From a virus (taxonomy: Duplodnaviria; Caudoviricetes): DNA of 64,000 nucleotides. Position numbers and translations under genes: made by a program. How positions within the stretch are numbered: the first letter of the stretch is position 1; the number at the start of each line of letters is the position of its first letter. This document shows, piece by piece, positions 1-13,526 of the stretch. The notes under the pieces are model-generated. The model did no database searches. It was not told the DNA's origin and saw only the letters and a program-made list of their open reading frames with translations. The stretch is from IMG/VR virus record IMGVR_UViG_2690315917_000002, positions 11,819-75,818 of that record, one strand, 5' to 3'.

Positions 1-2121
1 TGCCTGCGGCACTGCCGCCCCCCTCGGCATGTTGGTTTGTGAGGCAAGCCACCTCACGGCGATTGGGCTGGTGAGTGCGCGAGCAGTCGCATTTGCTCCA
101 ACTCCACCCGCTGCCACGCCGGCTGCAGTCCTGAAATGGCCACTACCCAAAGCATTGAGAAGGCCAACCCAGTAAGCGATCGCGGTGACCTTGTCGCCGC
201 TGCCAGATGGGTTCGCATAGACCTTTGCGCCCTCTTTGATGTTGTGCGCAACCCGGGCCACCTGGTTCATCGACTCCCTGAAGTTCTTGCCATAGCGACC
301 GAACAGCACCGCCTTGGCCTCCTCGCTCAGGTCATTCCAGTTGCGCATGAAAGTGGACGTACTGAAAACGTCGCCCTCTACGTTCTGATTCCCCGGCGTG
401 GCTAGCCCCAAGCGCTTGATCACAGCTGCGGACACGGCCTTCTGCTCGTCCTGCGGTAGCGAGTACATCACGGCGCGGAGCGTGGTTGCACCATCCCTGG
501 TGCCCGAAGTAGCTGCCTGGTAGACCTTCTCTGGGCCTCCATGTTTGTTCAGAATGCGCTGAACCAGATCATTCCTTTCAGCGACGTTCCGGGTGTAGTT
601 GTTAGCGCGTGCTGCGGCCCGCACTGCTGCCGGTCCACTGTTCTGCGCAGCCGCAAGCATGTCCTCCGACAGGGCCCCATAGACCTTCTGGAGCTCCTGC
701 AGATCAGTGCTAGGGTTCAGGGGCGAGGAGCGCCCGATCTGCTCACCGATGTCGGTGCGGATGCGCTTGAGCGCCTCATACGTCAGGTTTCCGCCATTCG
801 CCTGGAGATCCGCTTCGAGGTTGGTTCGAAGCCTAGTCATGCTGGGCTGGATCAAATCCCCGGTTGTTGCCCTTGCACTCGGGTTGGGAGTGGTGAGCCG
901 CTGAAGAACGCGTTGCGTATTGGCCATGGGAGTCGGCGCGGTTCCAGGGATCTGCTGATCGACCGCCCAGTACAACGCGCGTTTCACCGCGTTTGTGTCG
1001 CCCTTAAAGACATTCATGCCTCTCTCAATTGCGAGACCAGCGTTCTCCGAGCCCGGATTTGGCGAAAGGTTGGAAGCCTTTGCTTTAAGCCCTGCGCCGA
1101 TCCGATCAGCCTGGTCCTCGGCAAATCGGCCGAGTACTCCACCACTCGTAGGACCCTTGGATAGCAGGCCCTCCATCCCCTGAACCCATCCCGGCCCCGC
1201 AGCCTGTCCAACGGAAGGCGTCGCACCAAGTGCCTGGAAGTCAGCAAGTGTGTTCTGCATGCCTTGGCCAGAGCGGCCCCGAACCGCACCGCGCAATGTA
1301 GCCGCGCCGCCAGCCGTCGCAACACCTGGGGCGAGTCCACCCGCAAGCCCGGCAAGGAGCTGATTGCGTTCAGATGCTCCTGATTCGCGCGCTACAGAGG
1401 ATGCTCCAGATCCGGTAATGGAAGACACAGTCTGCAGACCAGGCTGGGTGGTCAGGAGGTCGGCAAGGCGATTCCTGACGGGAGCCACATAGCCCGGGGT
1501 TCGTATTGCAGCGCTCCTTCCAAGATTGGCAAGTGCGTTGATCCCGACGCCAGCACCCATGGTGAGGCTAGTGCCCGCCAGTGCTTCAGCAACATCGCCC
1601 AAAACACGATCAGCGCCAGTCTGTGCCTTGGGTAAGCCGAGCCGATCTGCCAGAGCTGCAGCCTCTTCTCGGTACGGGCGCGACTCCTGCAGGCCCGCAG
1701 CACGCGCCACTGGATTGGCGACATAGTTGTTGAAGGCATCGCCGCCAACTGCACCTAGGAGGCCGCCAGCGCTCTGCAACGCCGAGCGAACGCCGAATGC
1801 GAAGTCACGCCCCCTGCCCGGCATCCACCCATCGGCTTGGCGACCATCTGCAGTACTGGAAACACTGGAGCTCACATCCGAGAAATCAGCCCGCTCGGGT
1901 CTTCCGCCAACAACTTCGAGCTCCATTGGAGCCTGTCCAGGCCAATTCACAGTGCGCGAGGTGTCACTGTCGAACGCCTGACGAACCTGAGCATGCTCAG
2001 CAGCAGGCACATGCGGAGCAACAACTTCGTTCCAGTATTGATTACGAGCCTCCTCCTGCTGCTCTGGCGCAAGGGCCTGGTAGGCAGGGGAAGCGGCCAC
2101 GTCAACCCATTTCTTGGCCAT
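1..2121 (-). CDS. P22 gp16-like DNA transfer/ejection protein (partial, runs off window; absent from the ORF track)
   Basis: Manual translation from ATG 2121 gives MAKKWVDVAASPAYQALAPEQQEEARNQYWNEVVAP..., open to position 1; N-terminus resembles Sf6/HK620-type DNA transfer proteins; third gene of the ejection trio. Confidence 0.8.
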   Translation of the reverse strand, partial: MAKKWVDVAASPAYQALAPEQQEEARNQYWNEVVAPHVPAAEHAQVRQAFDSDTSRTVNWPGQAPMELEVVGGRPERADFSDVSSSVSSTADGRQADGWMPGRGRDFAFGVRSALQSAGGLLGAVGGDAFNNYVANPVARAAGLQESRPYREEAAALADRLGLPKAQTGADRVLGDVAEALAGTSLTMGAGVGINALANLGRSAAIRTPGYVAPVRNRLADLLTTQPGLQTVSSITGSGASSVARESGASERNQLLAGLAGGLAPGVATAGGAATLRGAVRGRSGQGMQNTLADFQALGATPSVGQAAGPGWVQGMEGLLSKGPTSGGVLGRFAEDQADRIGAGLKAKASNLSPNPGSENAGLAIERGMNVFKGDTNAVKRALYWAVDQQIPGTAPTPMANTQRVLQRLTTPNPSARATTGDLIQPSMTRLRTNLEADLQANGGNLTYEALKRIRTDIGEQIGRSSPLNPSTDLQELQKVYGALSEDMLAAAQNSGPAAVRAAARANNYTRNVAERNDLVQRILNKHGGPEKVYQAATSGTRDGATTLRAVMYSLPQDEQKAVSAAVIKRLGLATPGNQNVEGDVFSTSTFMRNWNDLSEEAKAVLFGRYGKNFRESMNQVARVAHNIKEGAKVYANPSGSGDKVTAIAYWVGLLNALGSGHFRTAAGVAAGGVGANATARALTSPIAVRWLASQTNMPRGAAVPQA

Positions 2122-2124
2122 TGG

Positions 2125-3795
2125 TCAGTTCCAGAGATTGCTGTAGTTGGAAGAAGATGGCGTTGATGAAGGAGCTGCGCCTCCGTAGTGCTGGCCAGCC
2201 CCTACAGCGGGCGCTGCGCTCTGAGCCCGCTCCTCGTCCGCCAAGGACTGTTCCACCGCGGACCTCCACTTCTTGTAGTGTGTCTTTACACGCTCAATGT
2301 TGTCTCTGATCTGAGCCTCAGACTGATTGGGATCGAGGTTGGCAATCGTTGATTGCAGCGCAACCAGCTCCTGTACCGCGATGGCGCCGAGCGCACCGCC
2401 CGTGGGCGACGAATCGCGCATCTGCTGCAGCCTGTCGAAGCCGAGGTTGGCCTTGATGGTTTCCAGTTCTGCAGCCAGGTTGTAGGAGGGGCTCCCCTCA
2501 ACGCCACGAGAGCGAGCGCCTACGAAGCCAGTCGAATATGGGCTTACTAGACCGAGCGCCTTGTCCAGCGACGTTTCCACGTTCCCGGCGGCGGTCAGAG
2601 CCTGTCTGTACTGCTGGATACGTTTCGGACGCTGTGCAGCGTCCTTAGCCTGTGCTTCCGCTGCTGCTGTCCCGGCTGCTTGAGTGATCGCCCCCTGGGT
2701 CTTCACATCCTGCAGCTGACGCTCCTGATTGAGCTTGTTCGGGAAGTTAGCGTTCTCCACATTCGTCGTAGCCTGCGCAGTGCGCGCAGCTTGATCTTCG
2801 GGGCTGCGGCCAACCGCAAGTGCAGGGTTGATGTTGTTGGAGGCTCCGCGAGGCAACTGCAGGTGGATGTGATCGCCTTCATCGATGGCCTGATAGCCAA
2901 GCTGGCGCGCACGGGAAATGAAGGCAGGCTTCTGATTGGCAGGAACGGCGTAGTCAGCAGCGGTCCCATTGAGATGCTGGCTGTTGGGCTGGCCGCCCAC
3001 CTGGGCATTCCTCTCGGCAGAACGGACACCACTGGTCATCGTCACAGCCGGGAATTCGGTCGCCAGCTGGCTGAATGCAGCGTAGTGGTTGCCGTTTGCC
3101 GGAGAAGCCACAGCCTGCGGTGCAGCCCCCATCCCAGCAGTGCCGCCCAAGGGCACAAACTCCCCGGTGGACTCGTCATATACCTCACGCGAGCCCGTAC
3201 GCGGATTGTTTCGACCCATGCGCTTAAGACCATCCGCACCTTGGAATTCAAAGAATCCGTAACCGGCATTGGAGGCTCGCCCTTCAAGGCCCAGCTGGAC
3301 ACGGCGGGCGCGCTCCTTGTCTTCCGGTGACAGACCAGATGTCATCATCTGGAAGGACCGAACATCCGTCGGCATCTGGCCGCCGGTGCCAGCCATGTAG
3401 AGGTCATTGGCGCTTCTCATGATGACCGCCTCGGTTTCAGGAGACCACCGAGGGGCGCCAGACACCCCCATCTTCTGCAGCTCGGGGAGCATCCGGTTGT
3501 TGTACAGGCTCTCTCGGGCCTCTGGCGGCATGGCCGTAAGCAGCTTGGCCATGTTCACCATGGTGGTATTGCGGCGCTCGTCCGCGCTGGCAAACGCCTG
3601 CTCCTGCTGCTGCGCGGCACGAGGGCTGAGTGCAGCCATCTGGCCGAGAAGCGACTGTCGCTGCTCCTGTGGCGCTTCATAGGAAAGCTGGGCCAGACGG
3701 TTCAGCTGCTGCTGGTCACGCTGGGCCTTGATCTGCTGGCCGAACTGGTTGCCCGCAGAAAGCGAGGCCAAGAAATTCTGCTGGAAGTCTGCCAT
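2125..3795 (-). CDS. P22 gp20-like ejection protein with internal peptidase M15-type domain
   Basis: Q/A-rich helical protein between gp7-like and gp16-like genes; motif TSGVRS..N..VGG..NSQHL.G.AAD...DHIHL. Confidence 0.75.
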   Translation of the reverse strand: MADFQQNFLASLSAGNQFGQQIKAQRDQQQLNRLAQLSYEAPQEQRQSLLGQMAALSPRAAQQQEQAFASADERRNTTMVNMAKLLTAMPPEARESLYNNRMLPELQKMGVSGAPRWSPETEAVIMRSANDLYMAGTGGQMPTDVRSFQMMTSGLSPEDKERARRVQLGLEGRASNAGYGFFEFQGADGLKRMGRNNPRTGSREVYDESTGEFVPLGGTAGMGAAPQAVASPANGNHYAAFSQLATEFPAVTMTSGVRSAERNAQVGGQPNSQHLNGTAADYAVPANQKPAFISRARQLGYQAIDEGDHIHLQLPRGASNNINPALAVGRSPEDQAARTAQATTNVENANFPNKLNQERQLQDVKTQGAITQAAGTAAAEAQAKDAAQRPKRIQQYRQALTAAGNVETSLDKALGLVSPYSTGFVGARSRGVEGSPSYNLAAELETIKANLGFDRLQQMRDSSPTGGALGAIAVQELVALQSTIANLDPNQSEAQIRDNIERVKTHYKKWRSAVEQSLADEERAQSAAPAVGAGQHYGGAAPSSTPSSSNYSNLWN

Positions 3796-3798
3796 GTC

Positions 3799-4557
3799 TT
3801 AGTTCCCCCACCCGCCGAAGCTGGATTTGCGGCCATTACCCAAGGCCAGAAAATTCTGCATGTTGTTGCCAAAACCCTGATTGGATCCTGGCGACACGGT
3901 GACTGACTGACCCCAAGCCGACGAAGGCTGCCAGCCGGACAGTGCATTGCCGCCGCCACCTGCCGCACCGGCGTAAGTGCTGGCCGCCGCTGCCAAAGCA
4001 TTGCCATAGCCCGCCTGAGTCATCGGACCAGCAGATGCGATCTGAGCGTTAGCCTGCCCCTTGAGGCCCATGGCATTGGCGAACTGGTTGCCGTAGTTCT
4101 GGCCAAGCTGGCCCAGGTACTGGCTCTGGTTCTGGCCCATGCTGGCGAGGCCCATCAGGCTGTTCCGGTACGCACCCAACTGCTGCGATGCCATGCCCTG
4201 CGCATAGTTGTTCAGGTCAGCCAGCTGGCCGCCCGAGTAGAGCGCGCCGCGAGCCGCTGCCGAGCGGTCGACGCCCTGCAGGCCCTGCTGCAGCGCGAAC
4301 TGGTAGTCGGGGCTGTTCTGGAACCCGGAATAGTCGCCAGAGGCCAGCGCGTTCAGGCCAGTGAGGGCGTTGTTTCCCGCCTCCAAGTACGGCATGGCCT
4401 CCTGACGTGACTGGTCGTAAATGCCCTGCTGGGTGTCCAGTGTCTGCTGGGCTGCGCTTGCTTGGGCGCGGCCCGCCTTCTTCTGTGCGGCGCCTTGGCG
4501 ATTGGCCGAATAGGCCATGCCGGCGCCGACCACTGCTGCTGCGGTGATAGCGGCCAT
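3799..4557 (-). CDS. P22 gp7-like ejection (pilot) protein
   Basis: Hydrophobic N-terminus, A/Q/G-rich, MPYLEAGNNAL and SPDYQF...DRSAAARG.LYSG motifs typical of podovirus ejection proteins; start reset to MAAITAAA. Confidence 0.75.
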   Translation of the reverse strand: MAAITAAAVVGAGMAYSANRQGAAQKKAGRAQASAAQQTLDTQQGIYDQSRQEAMPYLEAGNNALTGLNALASGDYSGFQNSPDYQFALQQGLQGVDRSAAARGALYSGGQLADLNNYAQGMASQQLGAYRNSLMGLASMGQNQSQYLGQLGQNYGNQFANAMGLKGQANAQIASAGPMTQAGYGNALAAAASTYAGAAGGGGNALSGWQPSSAWGQSVTVSPGSNQGFGNNMQNFLALGNGRKSSFGGWGN

Positions 4558-4559
4558 TG

Positions 4560-5009
4560 TCAGAGATCCTTTGTGTAGGAGATTTCGGAGCGCGCATAGC
4601 CCATCCGCTCGTACAGAGCGGCGGCTTGCGGCGGGCTGTTGGGCATATGGACCATCTGGATCCGGTCGCAACCGGCATCGCGCAGCGGCTGCTCAATTGC
4701 GTTGAGTAGCGAGACGGCGACATGTGAACCGCGCGCCTCAGGAGCTACCCACCACACAACCTCGACGCCGAACCTGACGTGTGCGTTGAACAGGAACGGA
4801 GCGATGAAGATGCCGACCATACCGACCAGCTCTTCGCTCTCCTCCGCCACGAAGAACACGTGGTTCTCCACAAGATTCGATGCCAGGGAGGCGACCGTTT
4901 CCTCGTTCATGTCGCACCACTGCGCGTAATGCGTGGTCGGGTAGAAAAGCGCAGACATGCGAACGATCTCCGGCACGTCTGCCAGAGTTGCCTTACGAAT
5001 GGTTGCCAT
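4560..5009 (-). CDS. GNAT-fold acetyltransferase (positional equivalent of P22 gp14)
   Basis: IRKAT..D, WWVAPEARG, LYERMGY GNAT motifs; directly upstream of ejection genes. Confidence 0.8.
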   Translation of the reverse strand: MATIRKATLADVPEIVRMSALFYPTTHYAQWCDMNEETVASLASNLVENHVFFVAEESEELVGMVGIFIAPFLFNAHVRFGVEVVWWVAPEARGSHVAVSLLNAIEQPLRDAGCDRIQMVHMPNSPPQAAALYERMGYARSEISYTKDL

Positions 5010-5560
5010 CAGGCCCTCGGGGTGAAGAAGGCCACCGCGACGAGGCGGCCAGAGTCGTAATCAGTGCCAAACGCGGCAAACGGCCAGCGGCTGTGGAACA
5101 GGGCCGATTCGTAGATGACCATCCGGCCAAGCTTCATTTCGGCCAGTCCGATCTGTTCCCATCGCGATGCGTCGTCCCAATCGCCCTTGACGTGTTCAAA
5201 CAGCGACATATCACCCGGGTCGATTCGATGTGCGCCGGTAGCCTTGTGGCGCCAGAAGGCCGTTCCGCCTTCGCCCTCGCTCAGGTATAGAACTGCCGCG
5301 TGCGTGCCCCAGCCCATGTCAGAGTGGATAGCCGCGTTGGGCAGCTCACCATTGAAGTTGAGCCGGTAGCCCATCCCCAACATTTCCACGGGCCCCATCT
5401 GCGCCTCAATTGCCTCTTGCAGACCAGGAACCGGCGTGAGCGAAACGCGCTTGTAGACCTCGCCGTCATGCCCGGGCCAGTCCACGTATTGCGCTCGCAG
5501 CCCCTCAGCGCGAGCGCTCAGCGCATCAGAGATCGCATTGTCGACAATGATAGGTGGCAT
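5009..5560 (-). CDS. 2OG-Fe(II) oxygenase-like protein (DUF6445-like)
   Basis: HSD...AVLYL..GGTAFW...FHS...GRL triad pattern; GGAG RBS before ATG 5560. Confidence 0.7.
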   Translation of the reverse strand: MPPIIVDNAISDALSARAEGLRAQYVDWPGHDGEVYKRVSLTPVPGLQEAIEAQMGPVEMLGMGYRLNFNGELPNAAIHSDMGWGTHAAVLYLSEGEGGTAFWRHKATGAHRIDPGDMSLFEHVKGDWDDASRWEQIGLAEMKLGRMVIYESALFHSRWPFAAFGTDYDSGRLVAVAFFTPRA

Positions 5561-5625
5561 CAGGTCTCCGGCGGCTAGGTGGCAGAGTGCGTGCGTACTG
5601 AATTGGGTTGCGAGCTTCGAGCCGC

Positions 5626-5664
5626 AAAAAAAAAGAAGGCGGCAGCTCTCTGGGGGCTGCCGCC
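5626..5664 (-). terminator. Intrinsic terminator in the leader of the ejection operon
   Basis: 9-bp stem GGCGGCAGC/GCTGCCGCC followed by TTC-T9 on the minus strand. Confidence 0.8.
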
Positions 5665-5758
5665 CGGACCCGCCCTTGGGGGGACGTGGGGCCCTACTAG
5701 GTAGGTCGGAATACGGGTGCTTTTGACTCCCGCGTCCACCGCCGTCCATGTAGGTCTA

Positions 5759-6502
5759 CTACTCGCAGGAAGCGCCCATTGCGGCGGCAACTCTCCGGCT
5801 GGCGCGGCCCAGCCATTCAAGCAGGCGCCTCTCAGCCGACTGCACCTCGACACGAAACCGCTGCTCTTGGCGGGCTTGGCCCTTGGCCGACTCCCGATAA
5901 GACTGCTGCTGGCGGCCGGCCAGCAATCTCCGGACCGCTTCCAGCGAAGCCCAGTCTGGGTGTCCGCACGCAGTCATGTGCCGACAGACCAACGGCCAGC
6001 TTCTCTCGTCACCGATGGCGTACAGCATCAGCCAGGCGCCAAGTGGACCGTCCAGCTGGGCATCCGCCAGAGCGTGCAGCACCAGCCTGCTCTGCCCCCT
6101 GACAGGCGCGGCCGTCAGCGAGCCCTGCGTCTTCCAGCTCCGTAGCTGGCGAGTACGATCAGCCGCGGTCGGCGCGCGCATCACCGCCATCTGATCAAAA
6201 TCCAGCACTGCTTGGCGATCCTTCGGGCTAAACCTATCCAGCGCCTGCTTACGGGCCGCCGCCTGCGTTGGTAGGTACTTGGATGCGGCCTGCTCAATCG
6301 AGTGCACCCGATGGATAGGCAGGTACGCACCGTCATCCGGGCAGCACTCCTCGCTGGAGCTCCGCCTCGTCGCATGCCGGATTGCGGGCCGTGTTGGCGC
6401 CCCGAAGCCAAACGCGCCAGCGATGCTCCTCACAACCAAATCGACTGCCTCGTTCTCCAGCAGCACCATCTCCAAGTACCGCTCATGGTCTCGAGATGCC
6501 AT
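5759..6502 (-). CDS. Hypothetical protein, candidate late-gene regulator (Q-like position)
   Basis: 247-aa ORF between origin and terminator-preceded late operon; function inferred from position only. Confidence 0.5.
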   Translation of the reverse strand: MASRDHERYLEMVLLENEAVDLVVRSIAGAFGFGAPTRPAIRHATRRSSSEECCPDDGAYLPIHRVHSIEQAASKYLPTQAAARKQALDRFSPKDRQAVLDFDQMAVMRAPTAADRTRQLRSWKTQGSLTAAPVRGQSRLVLHALADAQLDGPLGAWLMLYAIGDERSWPLVCRHMTACGHPDWASLEAVRRLLAGRQQQSYRESAKGQARQEQRFRVEVQSAERRLLEWLGRASRRVAAAMGASCE

Positions 6503-6650
6503 AGGCGGCCTCCCAGCGCGACCCGTCCGGCAGACGGACTACTCCGCCTGCCGAACCGGTTCGCGCTTCTCCTTGGATGCGTCCAGAAGCGACCGCCGTG
6601 GCTTGAAGCCCTAAAGCCAATGCCTTGAAGCAAGAAGAGCACGCTCCGCT

Positions 6651-6812
6651 TGGTATATATCTAGAAGGGTGTACACATAGCGACCTCGAAGGGGTGTGGA
6701 TAACCGCCTGACTGGCCTGCATTGCGACCTCGTAGGTCTCTATGCGGGCCAACTCGTAGCGGGATTGGCCTGCATATCGACCTAGTTGGCCCATATAGCG
6801 ACTACCCATAGC
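6651..6812. other. Putative replication origin (iterons, DnaA box, short AT-rich patch)
   Basis: Imperfect repeats ATAGCGACCTCGAAGG/ATTGCGACCTCGTAGG/ATATCGACCTAGTTGG, perfect DnaA box TGTGGATAA at 6695-6703, adjacent to wHTH gene. Confidence 0.6.
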
Positions 6813-7278
6813 GATTCCTCCACAGGTTCAATGGAGTTACGGTCGGTGGCTCAAGGTGCTTTTCGGACTCATCAACGGCGTAATAGGTCAGCGCATACAG
6901 GCTGCACATGTTCTTGCCACCTTTGCGCGTCTCGATGATCCAGCCTGCGGCGAGGAGCTCAAGCTTGGCGCCGTGCACGGTCGCCTTGCTCCTCCAACCA
7001 CGGGTCGAGAGCATCGACCAGGGGATGCTCAGATCGCCGTTTTTGCCAGGCCTGTACTGCCGGGCCAGTTCCAGCAGCAGCTTTACGGCGTTACCAGATA
7101 GCTGGCCGAACTCCGGCGAGTCGGAAATCCTGTGCTCAAGCATCAGAAACGGCGCGCCCTTCGACCGCCCTACGAGCTTCTGGCGCCGCCTGTCAGTGTT
7201 CTTCTTGGGTTGCGCCTGGCCATAGCTTGCGCCGCCCTCTGGAGACCGCTGGGCGCGGTCTTGGCTTGTACTGTGCAT
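6802..7278 (-). CDS. Winged-HTH protein, probable replication initiator
   Basis: LSGNAVKLLLEL...NGDL...S..TV..A..EL..AGWI...GG pattern of phage/PICI HTH Rep proteins; iterons immediately downstream. Confidence 0.6.
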   Translation of the reverse strand: MHSTSQDRAQRSPEGGASYGQAQPKKNTDRRRQKLVGRSKGAPFLMLEHRISDSPEFGQLSGNAVKLLLELARQYRPGKNGDLSIPWSMLSTRGWRSKATVHGAKLELLAAGWIIETRKGGKNMCSLYALTYYAVDESEKHLEPPTVTPLNLWRNRYG

Positions 7279-7306
7279 GTGCCCCCCAAGGGCAAGGAAC
7301 ACGGCC

Positions 7307-7840
7307 TCAGCCGCGCTTAGGACGTTTGGCTCTACAGGTCGTCCCTGCGTCCACGTGACGCCAAGTCTTCTTCTTGCGGATGCACCTGATAGTTGAACTA
7401 TTCACGCCGTAGCGGCGCGCCCAAACCTTGGTTGGAACGATTCCCACCGTGCGCAGGACAGCTTCCACCTCTGCAACGCTGAGCTTGCACTGGGAGGAGG
7501 GGCTGCCGAACCTGACTATGTTCCGTGCGCGTTGAAGTCGGCGATTCTCCGAACCAGTCACCAATTGCAGGTTGTCCAGCCTGTTGTTCGACGAATCACC
7601 GTCGAGGTGGTCCACCTCCATCCTCTTGGGTACAGGACCGTGGACGGCCTCCCACACGAGTCTGTGGGCATACCAGGTTGTGCAAGAGCCACCTGCCCGG
7701 CGGTGAATGACCCTGATGTACCCGTCACGGTATCTCCGGCCTACTGTCCGCCCGCAGGCGCTCCATAGCTCCCCAGTACTCGGCGAGACGAGGAGGCCGC
7801 TGGCGCAATGCAATAGCTTGTCAGTCGCGCTAGGAAGCAT
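7307..7840 (-). CDS. HNH endonuclease
   Basis: AHRLVWEAVHG...VDHLDGDSSNNRLDNL...SEN motif. Confidence 0.85.
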   Translation of the reverse strand: MLPSATDKLLHCASGLLVSPSTGELWSACGRTVGRRYRDGYIRVIHRRAGGSCTTWYAHRLVWEAVHGPVPKRMEVDHLDGDSSNNRLDNLQLVTGSENRRLQRARNIVRFGSPSSQCKLSVAEVEAVLRTVGIVPTKVWARRYGVNSSTIRCIRKKKTWRHVDAGTTCRAKRPKRG

Positions 7841-8525
7841 TGGGGGCCTCCCAACCGATCTGCTGAGAGCTGCACCAATTGGCTGCATGCTGCTCGAGGA
7901 GAGGTTTGCGCTCACGATATGGCCTGCCCTGCCCGATCCACACCGCGTTCTGCATCCTGAGCTCTTGCTGCAGCTTGAGCTGGTCTGTGGAAAGCGAGTC
8001 CTCACAGACGCCGCCAAAGACCCCAGTGATGCAGTGATTCACGAGTCGATGCTCGGTGGCGTAGTCGTAACCCTTGGGGTCCCGGCCCAGCCCAACCAGC
8101 ATGTCGTGCAGGATGCGGCACATCACGGTGCCTGCGACGCGCTTTGCCATTGCCACATCCTGCCGCGTGCCATTCGAGAGGAATGCCGCTGCGAGAACGT
8201 CAGCCACCTGCTCTTGGAACAGAACCACGCGCTCCCGAATGGCAGCCTTCACCTTGTTAGGATTCACTGTGGCCAGCCAGAACGGGAGCCTAGACAGGGG
8301 CAACGCCTGCATCTGGCGAGCCTTACCATCGCCAGCAACCATCCCCCTTAAGGTAGACAGTTGCCGAGCCAGGACGGGGTGAGATTTCAGCTTCTCGAGC
8401 TGCTTGGACCAATCCAGACCCATGCCTTCCACGATGGGCCGCATGGCGACAAAGGGTTGTCCTTGGTGGAGACGGCCGATGAGTTCGGCACCGTGGAACT
8501 CGACGTGGACGATTCCAGTAGCCAT
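7830..8525 (-). CDS. Phage antirepressor (P22 Ant N-terminal domain)
   Basis: VEFHG...PFVAMRPIVEGMGLDW..Q..KL, WLATVNPNKVK. Confidence 0.85.
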   Translation of the reverse strand: MATGIVHVEFHGAELIGRLHQGQPFVAMRPIVEGMGLDWSKQLEKLKSHPVLARQLSTLRGMVAGDGKARQMQALPLSRLPFWLATVNPNKVKAAIRERVVLFQEQVADVLAAAFLSNGTRQDVAMAKRVAGTVMCRILHDMLVGLGRDPKGYDYATEHRLVNHCITGVFGGVCEDSLSTDQLKLQQELRMQNAVWIGQGRPYRERKPLLEQHAANWCSSQQIGWEAPNAS

Positions 8526-8755
8526 TAGGCGGCCCTCCCCTCTTCGCAACGGGAGTCGATCCAGCACCGCACCGCCTCCGAGTCCCAGGCAGACAAGCGC
8601 GCAGCTACTCGGATAGGTTGGGGGAACCGACCATCCTTCGCCATCTTGTAGATGAGAGAGCGGGACATGCCGCAAGCCGCGATCACCTCGGGCAGGCGCA
8701 TTAGGGTTCGGCCCTGAGCGGCCACGCGCCCAAGCCGGATAGCATCGGAGGTCAT
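8525..8755 (-). CDS. alpA: AlpA family regulator
   Basis: LMRLPEV...GMSRSLIY...GRFPQPIRV...SAW. Confidence 0.9.
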   Translation of the reverse strand: MTSDAIRLGRVAAQGRTLMRLPEVIAACGMSRSLIYKMAKDGRFPQPIRVAARLSAWDSEAVRCWIDSRCEEGRAA

Positions 8756-9006
8756 ACCGAGGTCTCCTTATGCTGAGCCCACGCCCGGCGGGCCGTGTCC
8801 GGCACCCGGTACTCAGTGAGGGAGTAAGCGCCGTAGCTGTCACGCCTCCGAACGCTGACAGCGAGAAGGAGCCCGCGCTCGATCAAGCCCCAGGCATCCT
8901 TACGGCCCGGCTTGGTCTCGGCATGGGGGTGATCTGCGGTCCAGCCACCGAGATCCAGCAGACGTCGCTGACCTGGGCTCAGATCGGAGAAGTCGAATCC
9001 GCTCAT
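8752..9006 (-). CDS. Hypothetical protein
   Basis: ATGA-coupled between xis and alpA. Confidence 0.6.
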   Translation of the reverse strand: MSGFDFSDLSPGQRRLLDLGGWTADHPHAETKPGRKDAWGLIERGLLLAVSVRRRDSYGAYSLTEYRVPDTARRAWAQHKETSV

Positions 9007-9203
9007 CGCACAGCCTCCAGTCTGGAGGACAGCAAGCGCTGGAGATCGACCTCAGGGATCAGGGATCGAGTTCCAATTTTGACCGAGCGGATCTCGCCCG
9101 CTTTGATCAACTCGTAGAGGGTCGTCCGACTGACGCTTAGCCGGCGGCAGGCATCAGGGATTCGGTGGAGCAGGGGGTCGAGAGCGTTCGTGGAGATGAC
9201 CAT
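9003..9203 (-). CDS. Excisionase-family HTH protein
   Basis: ACRRLSVSRTTLYELIKAGEIRSVKIG.RSLI. Confidence 0.85.
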   Translation of the reverse strand: MVISTNALDPLLHRIPDACRRLSVSRTTLYELIKAGEIRSVKIGTRSLIPEVDLQRLLSSRLEAVR

Positions 9204-9345: not shown

Positions 9346-10293
9346 CTACTTTCCGGAAGATTTCTCCCCCCCTGAATTTTCCTGCATCTGCGCCGCATCC
9401 TCATTCGCAGCCTGAACTGCCAAAGCCTCTATGTTTTCCTTGGAAGCCCAGGCTCGAGCGTTCGGCAGCAGAGTCTTTCGGATGTCATCAACCTCGACTC
9501 TACGCCCGGCTGGAAACGCCGCGTCGCACATGTCCCCGTACGTGATCTTTTCCCCCGTGAGTCGACGCCAGTGATCCAATACAAGCAGTGGCACGTATCC
9601 ACTCTGTATCCAGCGGGAATAGTCCGCTCGAGAGAACGGGCGCTTGGCCGCACGGTGACTGTCTAGCTGCCTCATCGCCGCCAACCACTTATCAAAGTCC
9701 TGTCGAATGGTGGCATCTGGGACGCTTAGATCAATCGCGACAGCCCTATTGTTGGTCAAAGGCAGTGCTGACTTAGCGAACTCAGGGGAGTCACGGAGCG
9801 CGACAAAGAATGGTATACGTCCGAATTCTTCATAGGTCCGGACCTGATCCTTAGCTTCTAGCCAGGCTTCGTAATCCGCACTTAGCTCACATTCGATGAC
9901 GCGCCGGGAGCTACGAACCAAGTCCTGAGAGCCCTCCAGTTGTTCTAGACGCGCTGCCATTTGCGCGACCGTCCAATTGGTGATCGATGCAACGCTCCCA
10001 AAGGCGTAGACCTCCGGGTTGGAGGCATACTTTTCTTTCCACCACTCGTGCCCCTGCCTTCCTAGGCTCTTCTGAAGGTTGCTGAACATCTTTTCGAGCT
10101 CCACTCGATGCTCAGCGTCATCCTCTACAACAGAATGCAGGATCTCGCTGACGTCACTCACGATGGAGAGCTCAACCAGGAGATTCAACCAGTCCTCGGT
10201 AGCGAAGTCCGTCAAATCGCCGTAAGCATTCAGATCGAACCAGTCGGGAATTCGGCTGGCGGATTTCGTGCGGGCCACGTAGTTCCTCCTCAA
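9346..10293 (-). CDS. Hypothetical island protein (DUF6387-like)
   Basis: IPDWFDLNAY...IDLSVPD.TI..DF..WL, typical of genes upstream of alpA/xis in P4-like islands. Confidence 0.6.
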   Translation of the reverse strand: MRRNYVARTKSASRIPDWFDLNAYGDLTDFATEDWLNLLVELSIVSDVSEILHSVVEDDAEHRVELEKMFSNLQKSLGRQGHEWWKEKYASNPEVYAFGSVASITNWTVAQMAARLEQLEGSQDLVRSSRRVIECELSADYEAWLEAKDQVRTYEEFGRIPFFVALRDSPEFAKSALPLTNNRAVAIDLSVPDATIRQDFDKWLAAMRQLDSHRAAKRPFSRADYSRWIQSGYVPLLVLDHWRRLTGEKITYGDMCDAAFPAGRRVEVDDIRKTLLPNARAWASKENIEALAVQAANEDAAQMQENSGGEKSSGK

Positions 10294-10306
10294 TTGAAAC
10301 TGCCTC

Positions 10307-10864
10307 TTACCGAGGCCCTACATCTATGGGTGACAATTCGAAGGCTGGATGATCAGACCTATCAGGGATCAGCGACCGGACAGGAACGTTGCGCCTTCCT
10401 GCGTACTCCTCAACACTGACAGAAGACAGGTCGGTGAGTGCTGCCTCCAGCTGGTCCATTGTGTAAACCTCTTCAACACCCTTGTCAGCACAGATGCCGC
10501 GAAGCAAGGCCTCTATCAGCGGCGATCCGCACCCGAAGAAACCCTCTAAGATCCCCTTGTGTACTTCTCCAACGCTACCGCCGTGGGCCTCAGCCACGGA
10601 GCAGACAATATCGGCGAGATGGGCACTCCCGCTAGTGCGCGGGTCCGCTGCAGCCGCCCTGAGAGCTTGGAGGAAGGCGATGCAGCAGACCCTCCCCACC
10701 TCGCGGCCCATCAGATGCCCACGGGCTTCCGGCATCCGCCAGTAGTCCCCGACCTTGGCATGACTCTGGCGGTAGAACGGCAAGCGCTGAATTGGGTTCG
10801 CGCGGGTCCGATTAAACCGGATCGGTCTCCGGAACCTGCCGCTGCTACCGGCCATCGTCGCCAC
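10307..10864 (-). CDS. Hypothetical protein
   Basis: Co-oriented ORF in island operon. Confidence 0.55.
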   Translation of the reverse strand: MATMAGSSGRFRRPIRFNRTRANPIQRLPFYRQSHAKVGDYWRMPEARGHLMGREVGRVCCIAFLQALRAAAADPRTSGSAHLADIVCSVAEAHGGSVGEVHKGILEGFFGCGSPLIEALLRGICADKGVEEVYTMDQLEAALTDLSSVSVEEYAGRRNVPVRSLIPDRSDHPAFELSPIDVGPR

Positions 10865-11537
10865 CCCTATGACTATCCGTGAACCGCTTCATGACTGTGG
10901 CAACATCCTTCTCCCATTGGTGCATCCATGCCTTTGCCCTTCGCCGCGCGGTCGAAACTGAAATGGGGCGTCCGGCCTGTACAGCCTCCTGCAGTATCCG
11001 CTCTGAGATACGCGTCAAATTGTCCAGATCAGCTTGGCGGTCTTTGGCAGCCAAAGCTCTGTCCCTCGACCTCTGCTGGCGACGCAATCGACTTTCAGCC
11101 CTCTCAGCCGCTGCTTCCGTGGCTAGTCTGTCTTTCGCGATGACAGACTTAGGAAACGCGAGTGGGAGCATTCGATCCGTGTCCGAGACAGCGGTCGCAT
11201 ACCAATGCACGCCGTGTCGGTAGTGATACAGCGGCTCCTTGAAGAGGTCTGGCCATCCCAGCTCAAATGGTTCTTCATCCAGCGGATGCCAACCTAGCTC
11301 CCTGCCACGAGTGAGGAGCCTGGCTGCAGAAACGGACTCAACAATCACTTCACCGCGCTCGCCGTGATAGCAAAGCCGGAACTTGTGGTCGATTCGAGCA
11401 GCAAGCCAGTCTATGCTGCAGAGCTGATGTCCGATCAAAGTTCGGATCGGTACGCCAGCTTCAAGCAGCGCCTCAATACGGACTTCGAGTACATCCTTTT
11501 CCTGCCCCGCCGTCGCTACAGTCGAGCTGAGCATCAC
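10845..11537 (-). CDS. Hypothetical protein
   Basis: Co-oriented ORF, start overlaps upstream stop. Confidence 0.55.
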   Translation of the reverse strand: MMLSSTVATAGQEKDVLEVRIEALLEAGVPIRTLIGHQLCSIDWLAARIDHKFRLCYHGERGEVIVESVSAARLLTRGRELGWHPLDEEPFELGWPDLFKEPLYHYRHGVHWYATAVSDTDRMLPLAFPKSVIAKDRLATEAAAERAESRLRRQQRSRDRALAAKDRQADLDNLTRISERILQEAVQAGRPISVSTARRRAKAWMHQWEKDVATVMKRFTDSHRGGDDGR

Positions 11538-12089: not shown

Positions 12090-13304
12090 TTAGGCGCGTT
12101 TGGCTTTGAAGGCCAGCACGTTCGGTTCTGCAACGCGCAGCTGGTCGAGATAGTCAGACCAGGCCTGCATCATCTTCCGGCGTTCCGGTAGGTGGGTTGC
12201 TCGGTTGTAGGCCCGCCCAAGCGGATCCTTTACCGCATGCGCCAACTGATGTTCGATGTAGTCCGGGCGATAGCCAAGCACTTCGTCCAGCACCGTTCTT
12301 GCCATCGCTCGGAAGCCATGGCCAACCATCGTGTCTGAGTCGAAGCCAAGGTTTCGGAGCGCCGCGTTCATCGTGTTCTCGCTCATTGGCTTCAGCGAGC
12401 TGCGGACGCCAGGGAAGACAAATTCGCTCCGTTTCGTATACGGGTACAGCTCCCGGAGAACCTCAACGGCCTGATCGGACAGAGGGACGATGTGCGGCGT
12501 TTTGGTCTTGCTGGTGACGTAGCGCCACTCTGCAGCATCAAGGTCGATGTCAGCCCACTTCGCCTGCCTAAGCTCCCCAGGGCGAACAAACACCATTGGG
12601 GCCAGCTTTAGAGCGGCTTGCGTGACCAGTGCCCCCTGGTAGCCCCACAGCGCGCGCAGGAGGCCTCCTATAACGGCAGGATCAGTCACGCTGGCAAAGT
12701 GCTTGGTCTGAGGCTGTTCAAGCGCCCCTGTGAGGTCCTGAGCGGGATTTCTGTCAGCACGCCCCGTCGCGATGGCGTAGCGGAAGACCCGCCCAGCATG
12801 TGCCCGGGCGCGATGCGCGGTTTCTACAACACCGCGCTGTTCCAACTTCCGCAGCGCAGCCAGCAGTACGGGGGCGGTGATGTCCCCAATAGGCAAATCC
12901 GCCAGTCCAGCCAGATCCTTCTCGATCAGCCGACGCTCACGCACAACCGATCCAGGGGAAAGGCCCTCCTTCGTTCGCTTGGCGAGCAACTCCAAGCCGA
13001 TGGCTCCGAAGGTGTTCGCGGCCCGTTCTCCTTGGACTGCCTTTTCAACCCTGGCCACTTGAGCGGGATTAGCCCCGCCGCGCAGGAGCGAGCGCAGACG
13101 GTCGCGTTCGACGCGGGCAGCCTGCAGCGACATCGACGGGTACTCGTCGAGCGTAACGATGCTGGCCTTTCCCAGATAGCGGTAGCGGTAGCGCCACACC
13201 TTGGCTCCCGAGGGGCGCACTTCAATGCACAAGCCGTTGGCATCAGCCACACGGAAGGGACTGGCCTTCGGCTTGAGCGAGCGCAACTTGGTGTCGGTCA
13301 GCAT
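12090..13304 (-). CDS. int: P4-like tyrosine integrase
   Basis: Arm domain MLTDTKLR...GL.IEV..SG.K.W; catalytic RPGE, HGFR, LAH, AYN. Confidence 0.97.
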   Translation of the reverse strand: MLTDTKLRSLKPKASPFRVADANGLCIEVRPSGAKVWRYRYRYLGKASIVTLDEYPSMSLQAARVERDRLRSLLRGGANPAQVARVEKAVQGERAANTFGAIGLELLAKRTKEGLSPGSVVRERRLIEKDLAGLADLPIGDITAPVLLAALRKLEQRGVVETAHRARAHAGRVFRYAIATGRADRNPAQDLTGALEQPQTKHFASVTDPAVIGGLLRALWGYQGALVTQAALKLAPMVFVRPGELRQAKWADIDLDAAEWRYVTSKTKTPHIVPLSDQAVEVLRELYPYTKRSEFVFPGVRSSLKPMSENTMNAALRNLGFDSDTMVGHGFRAMARTVLDEVLGYRPDYIEHQLAHAVKDPLGRAYNRATHLPERRKMMQAWSDYLDQLRVAEPNVLAFKAKRA

Positions 13305-13480
13305 GTGAGTCGAGCGCCTGTGAGTCGTTTAGGGGGCGTCTAGCCCGCTGACACACAGCCTGACTCACTTTTTTTGTGGATGCAAGTGGATGCCGCTGGA
13401 CGGCACTGGATGCATCGTAGGGCTTAAATCAAGAAACTCAAGGGTTTTGCGGACGTCTCTGGACTTCGCTGGACGTCAAT
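13304..13480. promoter_or_regulatory. att arm region of the island
   Basis: Direct repeat TGTGAGTCG x2 plus inverted TGACTCAC; phased TGGAY repeats between int and the tRNA end. Confidence 0.5.
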
Positions 13481-13481
13481 G

Positions 13482-13526
13482 TGGTGGGCCCACCAGGATT
13501 CGAACCTGGAACCAAGGGATTATGAG
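13482..13526 (-). tRNA. 3' half of tRNA-Ile2/Met (CAT): att-site remnant, not a complete gene
   Basis: CTCATAATCCCTTGGTTCCAGGTTCGAATCCTGGTGGGCCCACCA = anticodon loop, T-arm, acceptor strand and CCA; no 5' half. Confidence 0.85.

What the first reader, a model, noticed from the sequence alone, without database searches (positions are those of the whole stretch)
1..13526. Satellite-like island whose visible virion genes are only a P22-type DNA-ejection module
Seen: integrase, xis, AlpA, antirepressor, Rep+origin, then directly oxygenase-GNAT-gp7/gp20/gp16-like genes, with open frames and tight spacing. Known: in P22-like podoviruses, terminase, portal, scaffold, coat and tail-adaptor genes precede this block. 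Described satellites (P4, PICI, cf-PICI, PLE) typically carry capsid-size, small-terminase or capsid genes rather than an isolated ejectosome. Inference: a satellite type that loads its own ejection proteins into a helper podophage capsid, to control DNA delivery, evade exclusion or poison helper particles. The neighbouring prophage is a siphovirus with a tape measure, so it is probably not the helper.
Basis: partly seen in the sequence, partly recalled or inferred. Interest (0 to 1): 0.88.

Follow-up and report, generated by a model that had tools for sequence, protein, structure and literature searches.

The report
Stenotrophomonas island carrying only ejection genes
A family of mobile islands in Stenotrophomonas keeps, of all phage particle genes, only the DNA-ejection proteins of P22-like phages, placed behind its own late-gene switch, which looks like a new way of parasitising or blocking phages.

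Summary
Window 1-13526 (minus strand) reads: tRNA-Met 3' fragment, P4-type integrase, HTH_17 excisionase-like gene, AlpA, P22_AR_N antirepressor-like gene, HNH, and a winged-helix Rep-like gene with iterons. Next comes a 247-aa gene that folds most like the Q-type antiterminator AlpA, then a conserved non-coding element with an intrinsic terminator. DUF6445, GNAT and gp7/gp20/gp16-like ejection genes follow directly.

Both refutation tests failed to refute:
- The 11.8 kb left of the window holds an IS3, a defence candidate and cargo, with no capsid, portal or terminase.
- The same architecture recurs in about 17 viral-collection contigs and in 9 of 147 Stenotrophomonas species genomes. The copies are deeply diverged, and the ejection genes are intact and under purifying selection.

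Complete P22-like prophages carry the same cassette (5.8 kb at 87% DNA identity, gp7 at 99%) but none of the island backbone. In a gp16 tree, 18 of 23 island copies form an island-only clade, and there were at least two later replacements from phages.

Best reading (about 0.5): a PICI-like satellite or interference island of podophages, whose only "late operon" is an ejectosome. Excision, packaging and a helper are not shown. No attR was found, and this copy carries an IS3 insertion.

The parts
13482..13526 (-). 45-nt 3' fragment of tRNA-Met(CAT), from the anticodon loop to CCA. It marks the integration site next to int. The 5' half of the tRNA is missing here.
   Evidence: Read. Unique in the window and absent from the left 14 kb. 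Relatives have a complete tRNA-Met at this place. Reads and contigs of other strains continue into the intact tRNA (table 7).
12090..13304 (-). Tyrosine integrase of the P4 type, 404 aa.
   Evidence: Pfam Phage_int_M 1e-22, Arm-DNA-bind_3 5e-20, Phage_integrase 8e-16. It is 80-99% identical in the other islands.
9346..11537 (-). Three island genes of unknown function: 230 aa (10845-11537), 185 aa (10307-10864) and a DUF6387 protein (9346-10293).
   Evidence: Pfam DUF6387 2e-13. The other two have no family. Conserved in part of the islands.
9003..9203 (-). HTH_17 (MerR/excisionase-type) small DNA-binding protein, 66 aa.
   Evidence: Pfam HTH_17 1.9e-12.
8525..9006 (-). 84-aa conserved ORF (8752-9006) and AlpA-family regulator (8525-8755).
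   Evidence: Pfam Phage_AlpA 6e-13. Both are conserved across islands.
7830..8525 (-). Antirepressor-like protein with a P22_AR_N domain.
   Evidence: Pfam P22_AR_N 1e-32.
7307..8017 (-). HNH endonuclease. The listed ORF overlaps the previous gene, so the true start is probably later.
   Evidence: Pfam HNH_3 2e-20, phrog_59 1e-27.
6802..7302 (-). Winged-helix DNA-binding protein, the presumed replication initiator ('p166').
   Evidence: No Pfam family. A language-model lead points to the lambda O N-terminal domain and HTH_36 clusters. In the AF2 model the core, residues 48-135, is a winged helix. Foldseek finds generic wHTH proteins at E 0.02-0.1. dN/dS 0.08-0.17.
6630..6815 (-). Iteron array (4-5 copies of GGTCGCTATG-type repeats on the minus strand) and an AT-rich box: the presumed origin.
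   Evidence: Repeats at 6676-6692, 6720-6736 and 6773-6789, plus half-sites. Conserved in 8 of 9 island lineages compared. They differ in L090, where the wHTH protein is only 39% identical.
5759..6502 (-). 247-aa regulator ('p247'), read as a Q/AlpA-like processive antiterminator or other late-gene activator.
   Evidence: No Pfam or PHROG family. The family has 99 representatives. AF2 model pLDDT 85.7. Best structural match of 48,161 chains is 7xyb_G, the AlpA-loaded complex: Z 8.0, rmsd 6.2, 147 aligned, next Z 5.1. The C-terminal part matches sigma region 4 at Z about 4. A language-model lead points to PF06323 clusters, score 0.92.
5625..5758 (-). Conserved non-coding element: GGGAG-N-CACCC inverted repeat, TA(G/A)TAGGG box and CCCAAGGGCGGG, ending in an intrinsic terminator (hairpin 5637-5665, T-run 5625-5636).
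   Evidence: Alignments. Fold. The CCCAAGGGCGRGY motif occurs once in each of 32 island loci and in none of the 36 other loci held at the time.
5009..5560 (-).
   Evidence: Pfam DUF6445 3e-10, phrog_1644. 93% identical to the prophage G001 homologue.
4560..5009 (-). GNAT acetyltransferase.
   Evidence: Pfam Acetyltransf_1 1e-14, phrog_1249 5e-26.
3799..4557 (-). gp7-like ejection protein, 252 aa.
   Evidence: phrog_598 'DNA ejection' 6e-37. Nearest cultured relative is Xylella phage Xfas53 'DNA injection protein', 58% identity. 99.2% identical to the prophage G001 protein.
2125..3795 (-). gp20-like ejection protein with a peptidoglycan peptidase domain, 556 aa.
   Evidence: Pfam Peptidase_M15_3 1e-9, phrog_24864, phrog_2534. 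dN/dS 0.07 against phage G001.
1..2121 (-). gp16-like ejection protein, 753 aa in all. Its last 46 codons and stop codon lie left of the window.
   Evidence: phrog_36512 4e-22, phrog_26400 'DNA ejection protein' 1e-8. Full ORF at L002:11678-13939. dN/dS 0.08-0.11.

Best explanation
This is one copy of a Stenotrophomonas family of PICI-like integrative islands at tRNA-Met. The islands interact with P22-like (Xfas53-like) podophages.

Shown here:
- The islands have a satellite-type backbone: P4-type integrase, excisionase-like HTH, AlpA, antirepressor-like protein, HNH, and a winged-helix initiator with iterons.
- They carry no head, tail, lysis or packaging genes.
- They have one 'late' unit. 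A 247-aa regulator sits immediately before a conserved promoter-proximal element and an intrinsic terminator, followed by gp20-like and gp16-like ejection genes. In this copy DUF6445, GNAT and gp7-like genes are present too.

Inferred:
1. A helper phage infects, or a helper prophage is induced, and the island is derepressed.
2. The island excises and replicates from its iterons.
3. The regulator lets RNA polymerase read through the terminator, as Q and AlpA do.
4. The island's ejection proteins are made while helper procapsids assemble, and are built into them.
5. Particles that carry island DNA, or helper DNA, then deliver it through an island-made ejectosome.

The benefit is the most speculative step. 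It may be entry into cells that exclude the helper's own ejection proteins, or sabotage of helper progeny.

This particular copy may be partly disabled. It lacks the 5' half of the tRNA, and an IS3 splits the island gene that follows gp16.
For: **Recurrence**
- 10 of the 25 viral-collection loci found with gp16 carry the island backbone upstream.
- Of 23 loci found with the Rep gene, 20 have the regulator. Of those 20, 18 have gp16 downstream, and the other 2 have a pair of like size.
- All 13 island loci mapped have a 420-580 aa plus 750-850 aa pair right after the conserved element.
- In 147 species genomes of the genus, all 8 with a close Rep have gp16 about 5 kb downstream. One more distant lineage (G141) does too.

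**Not a deletion derivative of the known prophages**
- Prophages G001 and G004 share only the cassette with the island: 5,773 bp at 87%, running from 54 nt inside the DUF6445 gene to 132 nt past gp16.
- No other protein of theirs matches at E<=1e-4.
- Rep and the regulator are absent from 5 of 5 such records.

**Selection**
- dN/dS against phage G001: gp20 0.07, gp16 0.08.
- dN/dS island against island (L028): gp16 0.11.
- gp7 0.13-0.23.

**Long residence and renewed exchange**
- In the gp16 tree, 18 of 23 island rows form an island-only clade (SH-aLRT 99).
- Two other island groups nest among phages.
- The label needs at least 3 changes, against a shuffled mean of 16.
- gp7 is 99.2% identical to a phage copy, while gp16 is 86%.

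**Late-type control**
- The terminator and conserved element are present in lineages whose regulator is only 36-46% identical.
- The regulator's best fold match is AlpA.
- AlpA's mode of action was taken from passages of PMC9371919.

**Satellite-like relatives**
- Two elements with a Rep 72-73% identical carry virion modules at the same place. L049 has HNH, head protease, major head protein and a small-terminase-like gene; L032 has a major-head-protein match and HNH. Both also have a tape-measure-like gene.

**Cargo**
- A PDC-M32 defence candidate lies distal to the cassette.
Against: - No excision, circular form, attR or packaging signal was found. No second tRNA-end copy occurs in the record, in the relatives' loci, or in 5 island-bearing genomes. 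The island's far end is therefore undefined.
- No small terminase, capsid-size or other hijack gene was recognised.
- A helper is not identified. 0 of 4 island genomes first tested have a P22 coat gene, and only 1 of the 9 island genomes (G069) does.
- The 18-row island-only gp16 clade has no close phage partner among the rows sampled.
- The antiterminator reading rests on one structural match at Z 8.0, a range the tool itself calls middling, plus a language-model lead.
  - No Pfam Q family matched any of 88 family members.
  - Foldseek gave nothing below E 0.8.
  - No sigma-70 promoter passed the consensus scan.
- In the L030-type lineages the hairpin is not followed by a T-run.
- Short contigs of one RNA-seq run of a related strain cover part of gp16, the regulator, Rep and int. 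If this is real RNA, it suggests some expression without a helper, which fits a defence role as well. DNA carry-over cannot be excluded.
- This copy has an IS3 in the gene after gp16 and a truncated tRNA.
Confidence: 0.5

Rival explanations
1. A resident anti-phage island rather than a transmissible satellite. When a podophage infects, the island expresses look-alike ejection proteins. These are built into the phage's procapsids, or act in the envelope, and make progeny non-infectious or block DNA entry. The island itself need not be packaged.
For: - Same facts as above on recurrence, purifying selection and cassette exchange with phages.
- No packaging or excision signal was found.
- A defence candidate, PDC-M32, lies in the same island.
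- There may be expression without a helper (weak).
- Island genomes mostly lack a P22-like prophage: 8 of 9.
Against: - The backbone (integrase, excisionase-like gene, AlpA, initiator plus iterons) is that of an element that excises and replicates.
- Nearly identical 9-kb copies occur in 14 DNA runs of 7 studies, under three coded organism labels. The island is also found in several species. This speaks for horizontal spread.
- Proteins kept 86-99% identical to functional phage proteins, under dN/dS of about 0.1, look functional rather than dominant-negative.
Confidence: 0.22
2. A self-lysis or abortive-infection module built like AlpA-alpBCDE of Pseudomonas aeruginosa. The Q-like regulator reads through the terminator. 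It turns on a peptidoglycan hydrolase (gp20-like) and a membrane-active protein (gp16-like) that kill the cell from within.
For: - The regulator's best fold match is AlpA. AlpA's regulon is a lysis cassette behind an intrinsic terminator.
- gp20-like proteins carry a wall-degrading domain in at least two lineages: Peptidase_M15_3 in this copy and transglycosylase/endolysin-type PHROGs in L030.
Against: - The cassette is exchanged as a block with phage virion operons, together with the gp7-like, DUF6445 and GNAT genes.
- No holin or signal for export was recognised.
- A killing module would have no need to track phage versions.
Confidence: 0.1
3. A decaying prophage remnant without a function of its own. 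The ejection genes survive by chance next to the early region.
For: - The order int, early genes, O-like Rep, Q-like gene, terminator, late genes is that of a lambdoid or P22-like prophage with most of the late operon missing.
- This copy has an IS3 insertion and a truncated tRNA.
- No attR was found.
Against: - The same junction, conserved element followed directly by ejection genes, is kept in lineages with 36-99% backbone identity and in 9 of 147 species genomes.
- All frames are open and dN/dS is about 0.1.
- An 18-row island-only gp16 clade shows long vertical descent within islands.
- The full prophages lack the backbone.
Confidence: 0.08

Closest known systems
Gram-negative PICIs (phage-inducible chromosomal islands; features recalled from the literature, not from a call)
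   Same: - Integration next to a tRNA.
- int followed, in the same direction, by an AlpA-family regulator, then a replication initiator with iterons, then a module that deals with the helper's virion.
- Accessory and defence cargo at the far end.
   Different: - No small-terminase, Rpp or capsid-size gene was found.
- The virion-directed module is a set of ejection proteins behind a Q-like regulator and terminator.
- Induction and packaging were not shown.
Capsid-forming PICIs (cf-PICI; recalled) and the L049/L032 elements seen here
   Same: - Satellites that bring part of the virion themselves and take the rest from a helper.
- L049 and L032 share the Rep (72-73%). L049 also shares the iterons. 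Both carry virion genes at the same position.
   Different: - Those carry head genes (major head protein, plus protease, small-terminase-like and HNH genes in part of them) and here a tape-measure-like gene.
- The Stenotrophomonas islands carry no head gene at all, only internal ejection proteins.
Late operon of P22-like podophages such as Xylella phage Xfas53 and the Stenotrophomonas prophages G001, G004, G117 and G086
   Same: - The cassette DUF6445-GNAT-gp7-gp20-gp16 is the same block, in the same order. It is 87% identical in DNA to G001.
   Different: - In the phages the block lies between head-completion and tail genes, after terminase, portal, scaffold and P22-type coat.
- In the island it follows the regulator and terminator directly.
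Lambdoid Q-PR'-tR' units and AlpA-PalpB-tB of Pseudomonas aeruginosa (PMC9371919, passages read)
   Same: - The regulator gene lies directly upstream of a conserved promoter-proximal element and an intrinsic terminator that precede the controlled genes.
- C-terminal helix-turn-helix.
- Best fold match is AlpA.
   Different: - No sequence family membership.
- The promoter, binding site and pause site are not identified.
- The controlled genes are ejection proteins, not lysis or whole late operons.
Satellite P4 (recalled)
   Same: - Integrase of the same type (Arm-DNA-bind_3 plus Phage_int_M).
- Own regulator for a small set of helper-directed late genes.
   Different: - P4 has a primase-helicase and capsid-size and decoration genes, and its helper is a myovirus.
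- None of these genes is present here.

Membership tests
Phage satellite (PICI-like island) | Integrase and site-specific integration, often at a tRNA. | tested here: met
   P4-type integrase next to the tRNA-Met 3' end. Relatives have a complete tRNA there.
Phage satellite (PICI-like island) | Lacks the gene set needed to build a particle. | tested here: met
   No coat, portal, terminase, tail or lysis gene in the window part or in the 11.8 kb to the left. Only the ejection cassette is shared with phages G001 and G004.
Phage satellite (PICI-like island) | Own replication initiator and origin. | tested here: inconclusive
   A winged-helix protein plus a conserved iteron array and AT-rich box; the iterons differ in L090, where the protein is 39% identical. 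No Rep family match, and no primase or helicase.
Phage satellite (PICI-like island) | A gene or site that redirects helper packaging (small terminase, Rpp, capsid-size factor, cos or pac). | tested here: not met
   None recognised by Pfam or PHROGs, or by comparison with the phage proteins. A pac or cos site cannot be recognised by sequence alone.
Phage satellite (PICI-like island) | Induction by, and transfer in particles of, a helper phage. | not testable with these tools
   No circular junction or attR was found. The reads laid came from strains without the island, or were contigs.
P22-type ejection (E) proteins gp7/gp20/gp16 | Three consecutive internal-protein genes after the head-completion genes and before the tail genes of a P22-coat podophage. 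| tested here: met
   Homologues at 86-99% identity sit exactly there in prophage G001, which has a P22_CoatProtein match.
P22-type ejection (E) proteins gp7/gp20/gp16 | Sequence family match. | tested here: met
   phrog_598 (6e-37), phrog_2534 (8e-10), phrog_26400 (1e-8). Xfas53 'DNA injection protein' at 58%. P22's own proteins were not compared directly.
Q-type antiterminators (Pfam Phage_antiter_Q and relatives; AlpA/21Q fold) | Membership of a Pfam Q family. | tested here: not met
   No Pfam hit at E<=0.01 for the protein. None of 88 family members matched a Q family.
Q-type antiterminators (Pfam Phage_antiter_Q and relatives; AlpA/21Q fold) | AlpA/21Q-like fold with a C-terminal helix-turn-helix. 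| tested here: inconclusive
   7xyb_G is top of 48,161 chains at Z 8.0, rmsd 6.2, 147 aligned, next Z 5.1. Sigma region 4 matches at Z about 4. By Foldseek, 7xya_G ranks 5th at E 1.8.
Q-type antiterminators (Pfam Phage_antiter_Q and relatives; AlpA/21Q fold) | Gene directly upstream of a promoter and an intrinsic terminator that precede the controlled operon. | tested here: inconclusive
   The terminator hairpin with T-run and a conserved upstream element are present. No promoter passed the consensus scan. The L030-type lineages lack a T-run.
Defective prophage made by a single deletion | The junction is unique to this copy, and relatives are complete prophages. | tested here: not met
   The junction recurs in all island loci. 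Complete prophages lack the backbone.

The most novel reading that the evidence does not exclude
These islands are a new class of phage satellite that parasitises P22-like podophages by supplying the ejectosome rather than by reshaping the capsid or stealing packaging. The island makes its own DNA-ejection proteins under its own Q-like antiterminator and loads them into helper capsids. This decides which cells the particles can enter, for instance cells whose resident prophage blocks the helper's own ejection proteins. Sister elements with the same replication module that carry a tape-measure-like gene would do the same with siphophage helpers.
Probability: 0.4. Interest if true: 0.9.

Novelty: new variant of a known kind. 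Interest (0 to 1): 0.78.

Why it matters
Described satellites act on capsid size, packaging specificity or whole capsid formation. None that I know of, and none in the library searches, carries ejection proteins as its only virion contribution.

If these islands load their own ejectosome, DNA delivery becomes a further stage at which satellites and phages compete. This bears on:
- host range;
- superinfection exclusion;
- phage therapy against Stenotrophomonas maltophilia;
- automated prophage callers, which file these 20-25 kb islands as partial viruses.

The work also yields two testable side products:
- an uncharacterised family of about 100 clusters of candidate Q/AlpA-like antiterminators, with a sharply conserved target element;
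- a natural system in which nearly identical ejection proteins are encoded by both a phage and an island.

Tried and rejected
- **attR and island end.**
  - Exact and near-exact searches for a second tRNA-Met 3' copy found nothing. I looked in the record, in three relatives' loci, in 31-35 kb downstream in two genomes, and in 5 whole island genomes.
  - The flank upstream of the tRNA in G006 is not conserved in 40 other genomes, so the empty-site approach failed.
  - Five genomes with attL/attR-like tRNA-Met repeats hold other elements, not this island.
- **Regulator p247.**
  - The PDB sequence searches with p247 alone and with a profile of its family gave only chance hits. So did the single-sequence search with the Rep protein p166.
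  - Word-based homologue search gave only close Stenotrophomonas relatives, unnamed or named hypothetical.
  - Context of distant p247 relatives: alignments were not conserved enough for a locus scan. One single-protein scan found nothing. Another gave one locus, L103, that I could not annotate further.
- **Rfam.** Nothing at or near gathering score in 1-14000. In particular there was nothing on the conserved element.
- **Covariation.** RNAalifold on the element found no compensatory pair within its 12 consensus pairs. The hairpins of the sub-families differ in sequence, but they were not aligned column for column.
- **Cassette proteins.** PDB sequence searches with the DUF6445 and gp20-like proteins found nothing.
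- **First dN/dS for gp7.** One search used a wrong frame. It was discarded and redone.
- **RNA runs.** The two raw-read runs lack the island; only the tRNA fragment is covered. The X15 contigs are long and flat, so they may be DNA.
- **Literature.** Five searches found no paper on satellites with an ejection-protein module. PMC11680222 mentions putative satellites in S. maltophilia defence islands without detail (passages).
- **Not used.** Complex prediction.
- **Rows left out of the gp16 tree.**
  - L041 and L043: no tblastn hit.
  - L038: identical to L029.
  - L019, L023, L027, L084, L086 and L094 (gp16 cut short or matched only in part) were not entered.

Full report
**Where the window lies.** The window is bases 11819-75818 of a 75,818-bp provirus record. 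I fetched the 11.8 kb to its left (L002). All genes of the finding are on the minus strand, so the element reads from right (integrase) to left (ejection genes).

**Anatomy.**
- At 13482-13526 lies a 45-nt copy of the 3' part of tRNA-Met(CAT). ARAGORN sees no tRNA there, and there is no second copy in the record.
- The genes that follow, in order:
  - a P4-type integrase (12090-13304);
  - three unknown genes, one of them DUF6387;
  - an HTH_17 excisionase-like gene (9003-9203);
  - an 84-aa ORF;
  - AlpA (8525-8755);
  - a P22_AR_N antirepressor-like gene (7830-8525);
  - an HNH endonuclease (7307-8017);
  - a 166-aa protein (6802-7302);
  - a 300-bp spacer with iterons;
  - a 247-aa protein (5759-6502);
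  - 134 bp (5625-5758) of conserved non-coding DNA ending in a terminator, then a short variable stretch.
- After these come the DUF6445, GNAT, gp7-like, gp20-like (Peptidase_M15_3) and gp16-like genes.
- gp16 is complete at 753 aa and ends 141 nt left of the window.
- The ejection assignments rest on PHROG matches, on Xylella phage Xfas53 'DNA injection protein' as nearest cultured relative, and on synteny in complete P22-like prophages (below).
- The 'oxygenase' label is unverified: only DUF6445 matches.

**First refutation test: what lies to the left.** Going left from gp16, the record holds the following:
- the first 98 codons of a conserved island gene;
- an IS3-family element;
- the last 93 codons of that same gene;
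- a two-gene PDC-M32 defence candidate;
- a BLUF protein and small ORFs.

There is no coat, portal or terminase, and the whole record has no P22-coat match.

**Second refutation test: is this a unique deletion?**
- A scan of viral contigs with gp16 gave 25 loci, which sorted as follows:
  - 10 have the island's early genes, Rep and 247-aa gene upstream of gp16;
  - 8 (L003-L010) have the cassette or part of it but no island gene;
  - 7 matched gp16 only.
- Sampling by the island-specific 166-aa gene gave 17 viral and 6 genomic loci. The genomic loci named the host: Stenotrophomonas maltophilia, S. indicatrix and Stenotrophomonas sp.
  - 20 of these 23 have the 247-aa gene.
  - 18 of the 20 have gp16 downstream by tblastn.
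  - The remaining two (L041, L043) have pairs of 477+843 and 422+754 aa at that place. The first gene of each pair shares phrog_35431 with the gp20-like gene of another island.
- All 13 island loci mapped have a 420-580 aa plus 750-850 aa pair straight after the conserved element.
- DUF6445-GNAT-gp7 precede the pair only in the window, L029/L038, L040 and L042. In the L030-type islands a gp7-like gene follows gp16 instead.
- Backbone identity to the window ranges from 99% to 80% for int and from 91% to 36% for the 247-aa protein.
- In a survey of 147 species genomes of the genus:
  - 8 have a close Rep, and each of them has gp16 about 5 kb downstream; one more distant lineage (G141) does too;
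  - 23 have a gp16-like gene;
  - 4 have a P22 coat.
- The other gp16 contexts:
  - two full P22-like prophages (G117, G086) and one partial (G062, contig 89);
  - a set of full late operons with a different head (8 mapped; G049's shares long DNA blocks with them);
  - three loci too short to map (G039, G057, G071);
  - one ambiguous locus, L081.

**Relation to phages.**
- Records G001, G003 and G004 (31-39 kb) have a P22-type coat (3 of 5 records tested). G004 and G001 show the order terminase, portal, scaffold, coat, head completion, DUF6445, GNAT, gp7, gp20, gp16, tail.
- Island and G001 share one DNA block: 5,773 bp at 87%. It starts 54 nt inside the DUF6445 gene and ends 132 nt after gp16.
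- No other G001 or G004 protein matches the island. Rep and the 247-aa gene are absent from all five records.
- dN/dS is low:
  - against G001: DUF6445 0.11, GNAT 0.08, gp7 0.13, gp20 0.07, gp16 0.08;
  - island against island: gp16 0.11, gp20 0.29, gp7 0.20-0.23.
- Identity to G001 is mosaic: gp7 99.2% (dS 0.03), gp20 94% (dS 0.41), gp16 86% (dS 1.1). That points to recent recombination.
- A maximum-likelihood tree of 47 gp16 rows (23 island, 19 phage, 5 unclassified) puts 18 island rows in one island-only clade (support 99).
  - Two groups nest among phages: window plus L028 next to G001, and L040/L029/L042 next to G086.
  - The island label needs at least 3 changes, against a shuffled mean of 16.
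- So the islands have kept ejection genes for a long time and have replaced them from phages at least twice.

**Replication module.**
- The 166-aa protein has no family. It is a winged-helix protein by model (core pLDDT 70-92) and by Foldseek (generic wHTH, E 0.02-0.1). A language-model lead points to the lambda O N-terminal domain.
- The spacer after it holds 4-5 GGTCGCTATG-type repeats and an AT-rich box. These are conserved in 8 of 9 lineages compared. They are replaced by other repeats in L090, where the protein is 39% identical.
- This supports 'Rep plus origin' in a modest sense. No helicase or primase is present.

**Late-type control.**
- The 247-aa protein belongs to an unnamed family of 99 representative clusters. 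None of the 88 members scanned matches a Q antiterminator family; three stray Pfam hits touched one member each.
- Its model is confident (pLDDT 85.7). Foldseek found nothing below E 0.8.
- An all-against-all structural search put 7xyb_G, from the AlpA-loaded transcription complex, first at Z 8.0 (rmsd 6.2, 147 residues). The next hit scored 5.1. The C-terminal helices matched sigma region 4 at Z about 4.
- The protein atlas independently listed Phage_antiter_Q clusters at 0.92.
- According to the passages I read of PMC9371919, AlpA binds an element in the promoter and lets RNA polymerase bypass an intrinsic terminator before the alpBCDE lysis genes. It shares its fold, but not its sequence, with 21Q.
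- Directly after the 247-aa gene's stop codon, every island has a conserved element: a GGGAG...CACCC inverted repeat, a TA(G/A)TAGGG box and CCCAAGGGCGGG, followed by a GC-rich hairpin.
  - In the window type the hairpin is followed by a run of 7-9 T.
  - The 13-nt motif occurs once in each of 32 island loci and in none of the 36 other loci.
- I read this as a Q-PR'-tR'-like unit whose operon is the ejectosome. The promoter itself was not identified, and the L030-type hairpins lack a T-run.

**Satellite-like relatives.** Two elements with a Rep 72-73% identical carry other virion modules at the same position:
- L049 also shares the iterons. It has HNH, head protease, major head protein, a small-terminase-like gene and a 1,115-aa tape-measure-like protein.
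- L032 has a 544-aa protein matching the major-head-protein family phrog_10, HNH and a 796-aa tape-measure-like protein.

This is the pattern of capsid-forming satellites, which places the backbone among satellite-like elements.

**What speaks against a working satellite here.**
- No attR or circular junction was found.
- No packaging gene was found.
- No helper is identified. Only 1 of 9 island genomes has a P22 coat.
- This copy has a truncated tRNA and an IS3 insertion.
- Public runs show the same 9 kb in 14 DNA runs of 7 studies, so the island is widespread.
- One RNA-seq run of a related strain has short contigs over part of gp16, the regulator, Rep and int. DNA carry-over cannot be excluded.

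**Verdict.**
- The interpretation passes both of its own refutation tests but lacks any direct evidence of helper dependence.
- My ranking:
  - podophage satellite or interference island that loads its own ejection proteins, about 0.5;
  - non-transmissible decoy defence, about 0.2;
  - AlpA-like self-lysis module, about 0.1;
  - inert remnant, under 0.1.
- I found no description of such an element in the paper library. Supplements were closed.

Noticed in passing
window 13527-16623: Right of the tRNA fragment the tRNA's 5' half is replaced by other DNA. That DNA carries a second, divergent integrase-like gene (13596-15062; weak Arm-DNA-bind_3 match) and a KAP-family P-loop NTPase (15154-16623). 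This looks like another element inserted into the same tRNA-Met. The tRNA 5' half is nowhere in the window.
   Followed up: partly
window about 25100-47700: Lambda-like siphovirus prophage: terminase large subunit, portal, protease, major head protein, 968-aa tape measure, J-like central fibre and tail fibre. tRNA-Tyr lies at 47601-47685.
   Followed up: partly
L002 9324-11116 (left of the window): A conserved island-specific gene of about 230 aa follows gp16 in most islands and has no Pfam or PHROG family. Here an IS3-family element (transposase genes at L002 9609-10771) splits it, and codons 99-140 are lost.
   Followed up: yes
L002 6979-8567: Two-gene candidate defence system PDC-M32 (A 2e-79, B 7e-34), in a stretch of lower G+C (53-58%) distal to the ejection genes.
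   Followed up: partly
L002 3334-3903: BLUF blue-light sensor domain protein among the island's distal cargo.
   Followed up: no
L049 6858-16795 and L032 6727-16193: Elements with a Rep 72-73% identical to the island's (L049 also with the same iterons). Instead of the regulator plus ejection genes, L049 carries HNH, head protease, major head protein and a small-terminase-like gene; L032 carries a major-head-protein match and HNH. Both have a long tape-measure-like protein. They are possible satellites of siphophages that bring their own tape measure.
   Followed up: partly
G006:C2:43407-55511 (locus L061 in part): In S. maltophilia EA1 a copy of the tRNA-Met 5' half lies 12 kb upstream of the intact tRNA. 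A 38%-identical paralogue of the winged-helix Rep lies between them. This suggests a second, related element in tandem on the other side of the tRNA.
   Followed up: no
window 11959-12033: Weak matches, below gathering score, to plasmid antisense RNA families: PtaRNA1 at 28 bits on one strand and Plasmid_R1162 at 28 bits on the other. They lie between the integrase and the first unknown gene.
   Followed up: no
L081 (G100:C26:20862-40374): A gp16-like gene (50% identity) with 417-aa and 214-aa genes upstream, in a context that matches neither the islands nor the phage late operons used for comparison.
   Followed up: partly
G106 contigs C1, C2, C3: Three matches of identical score to a gp16-like gene on three contigs of one genome. 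Either a multi-copy prophage or an assembly artefact.
   Followed up: no
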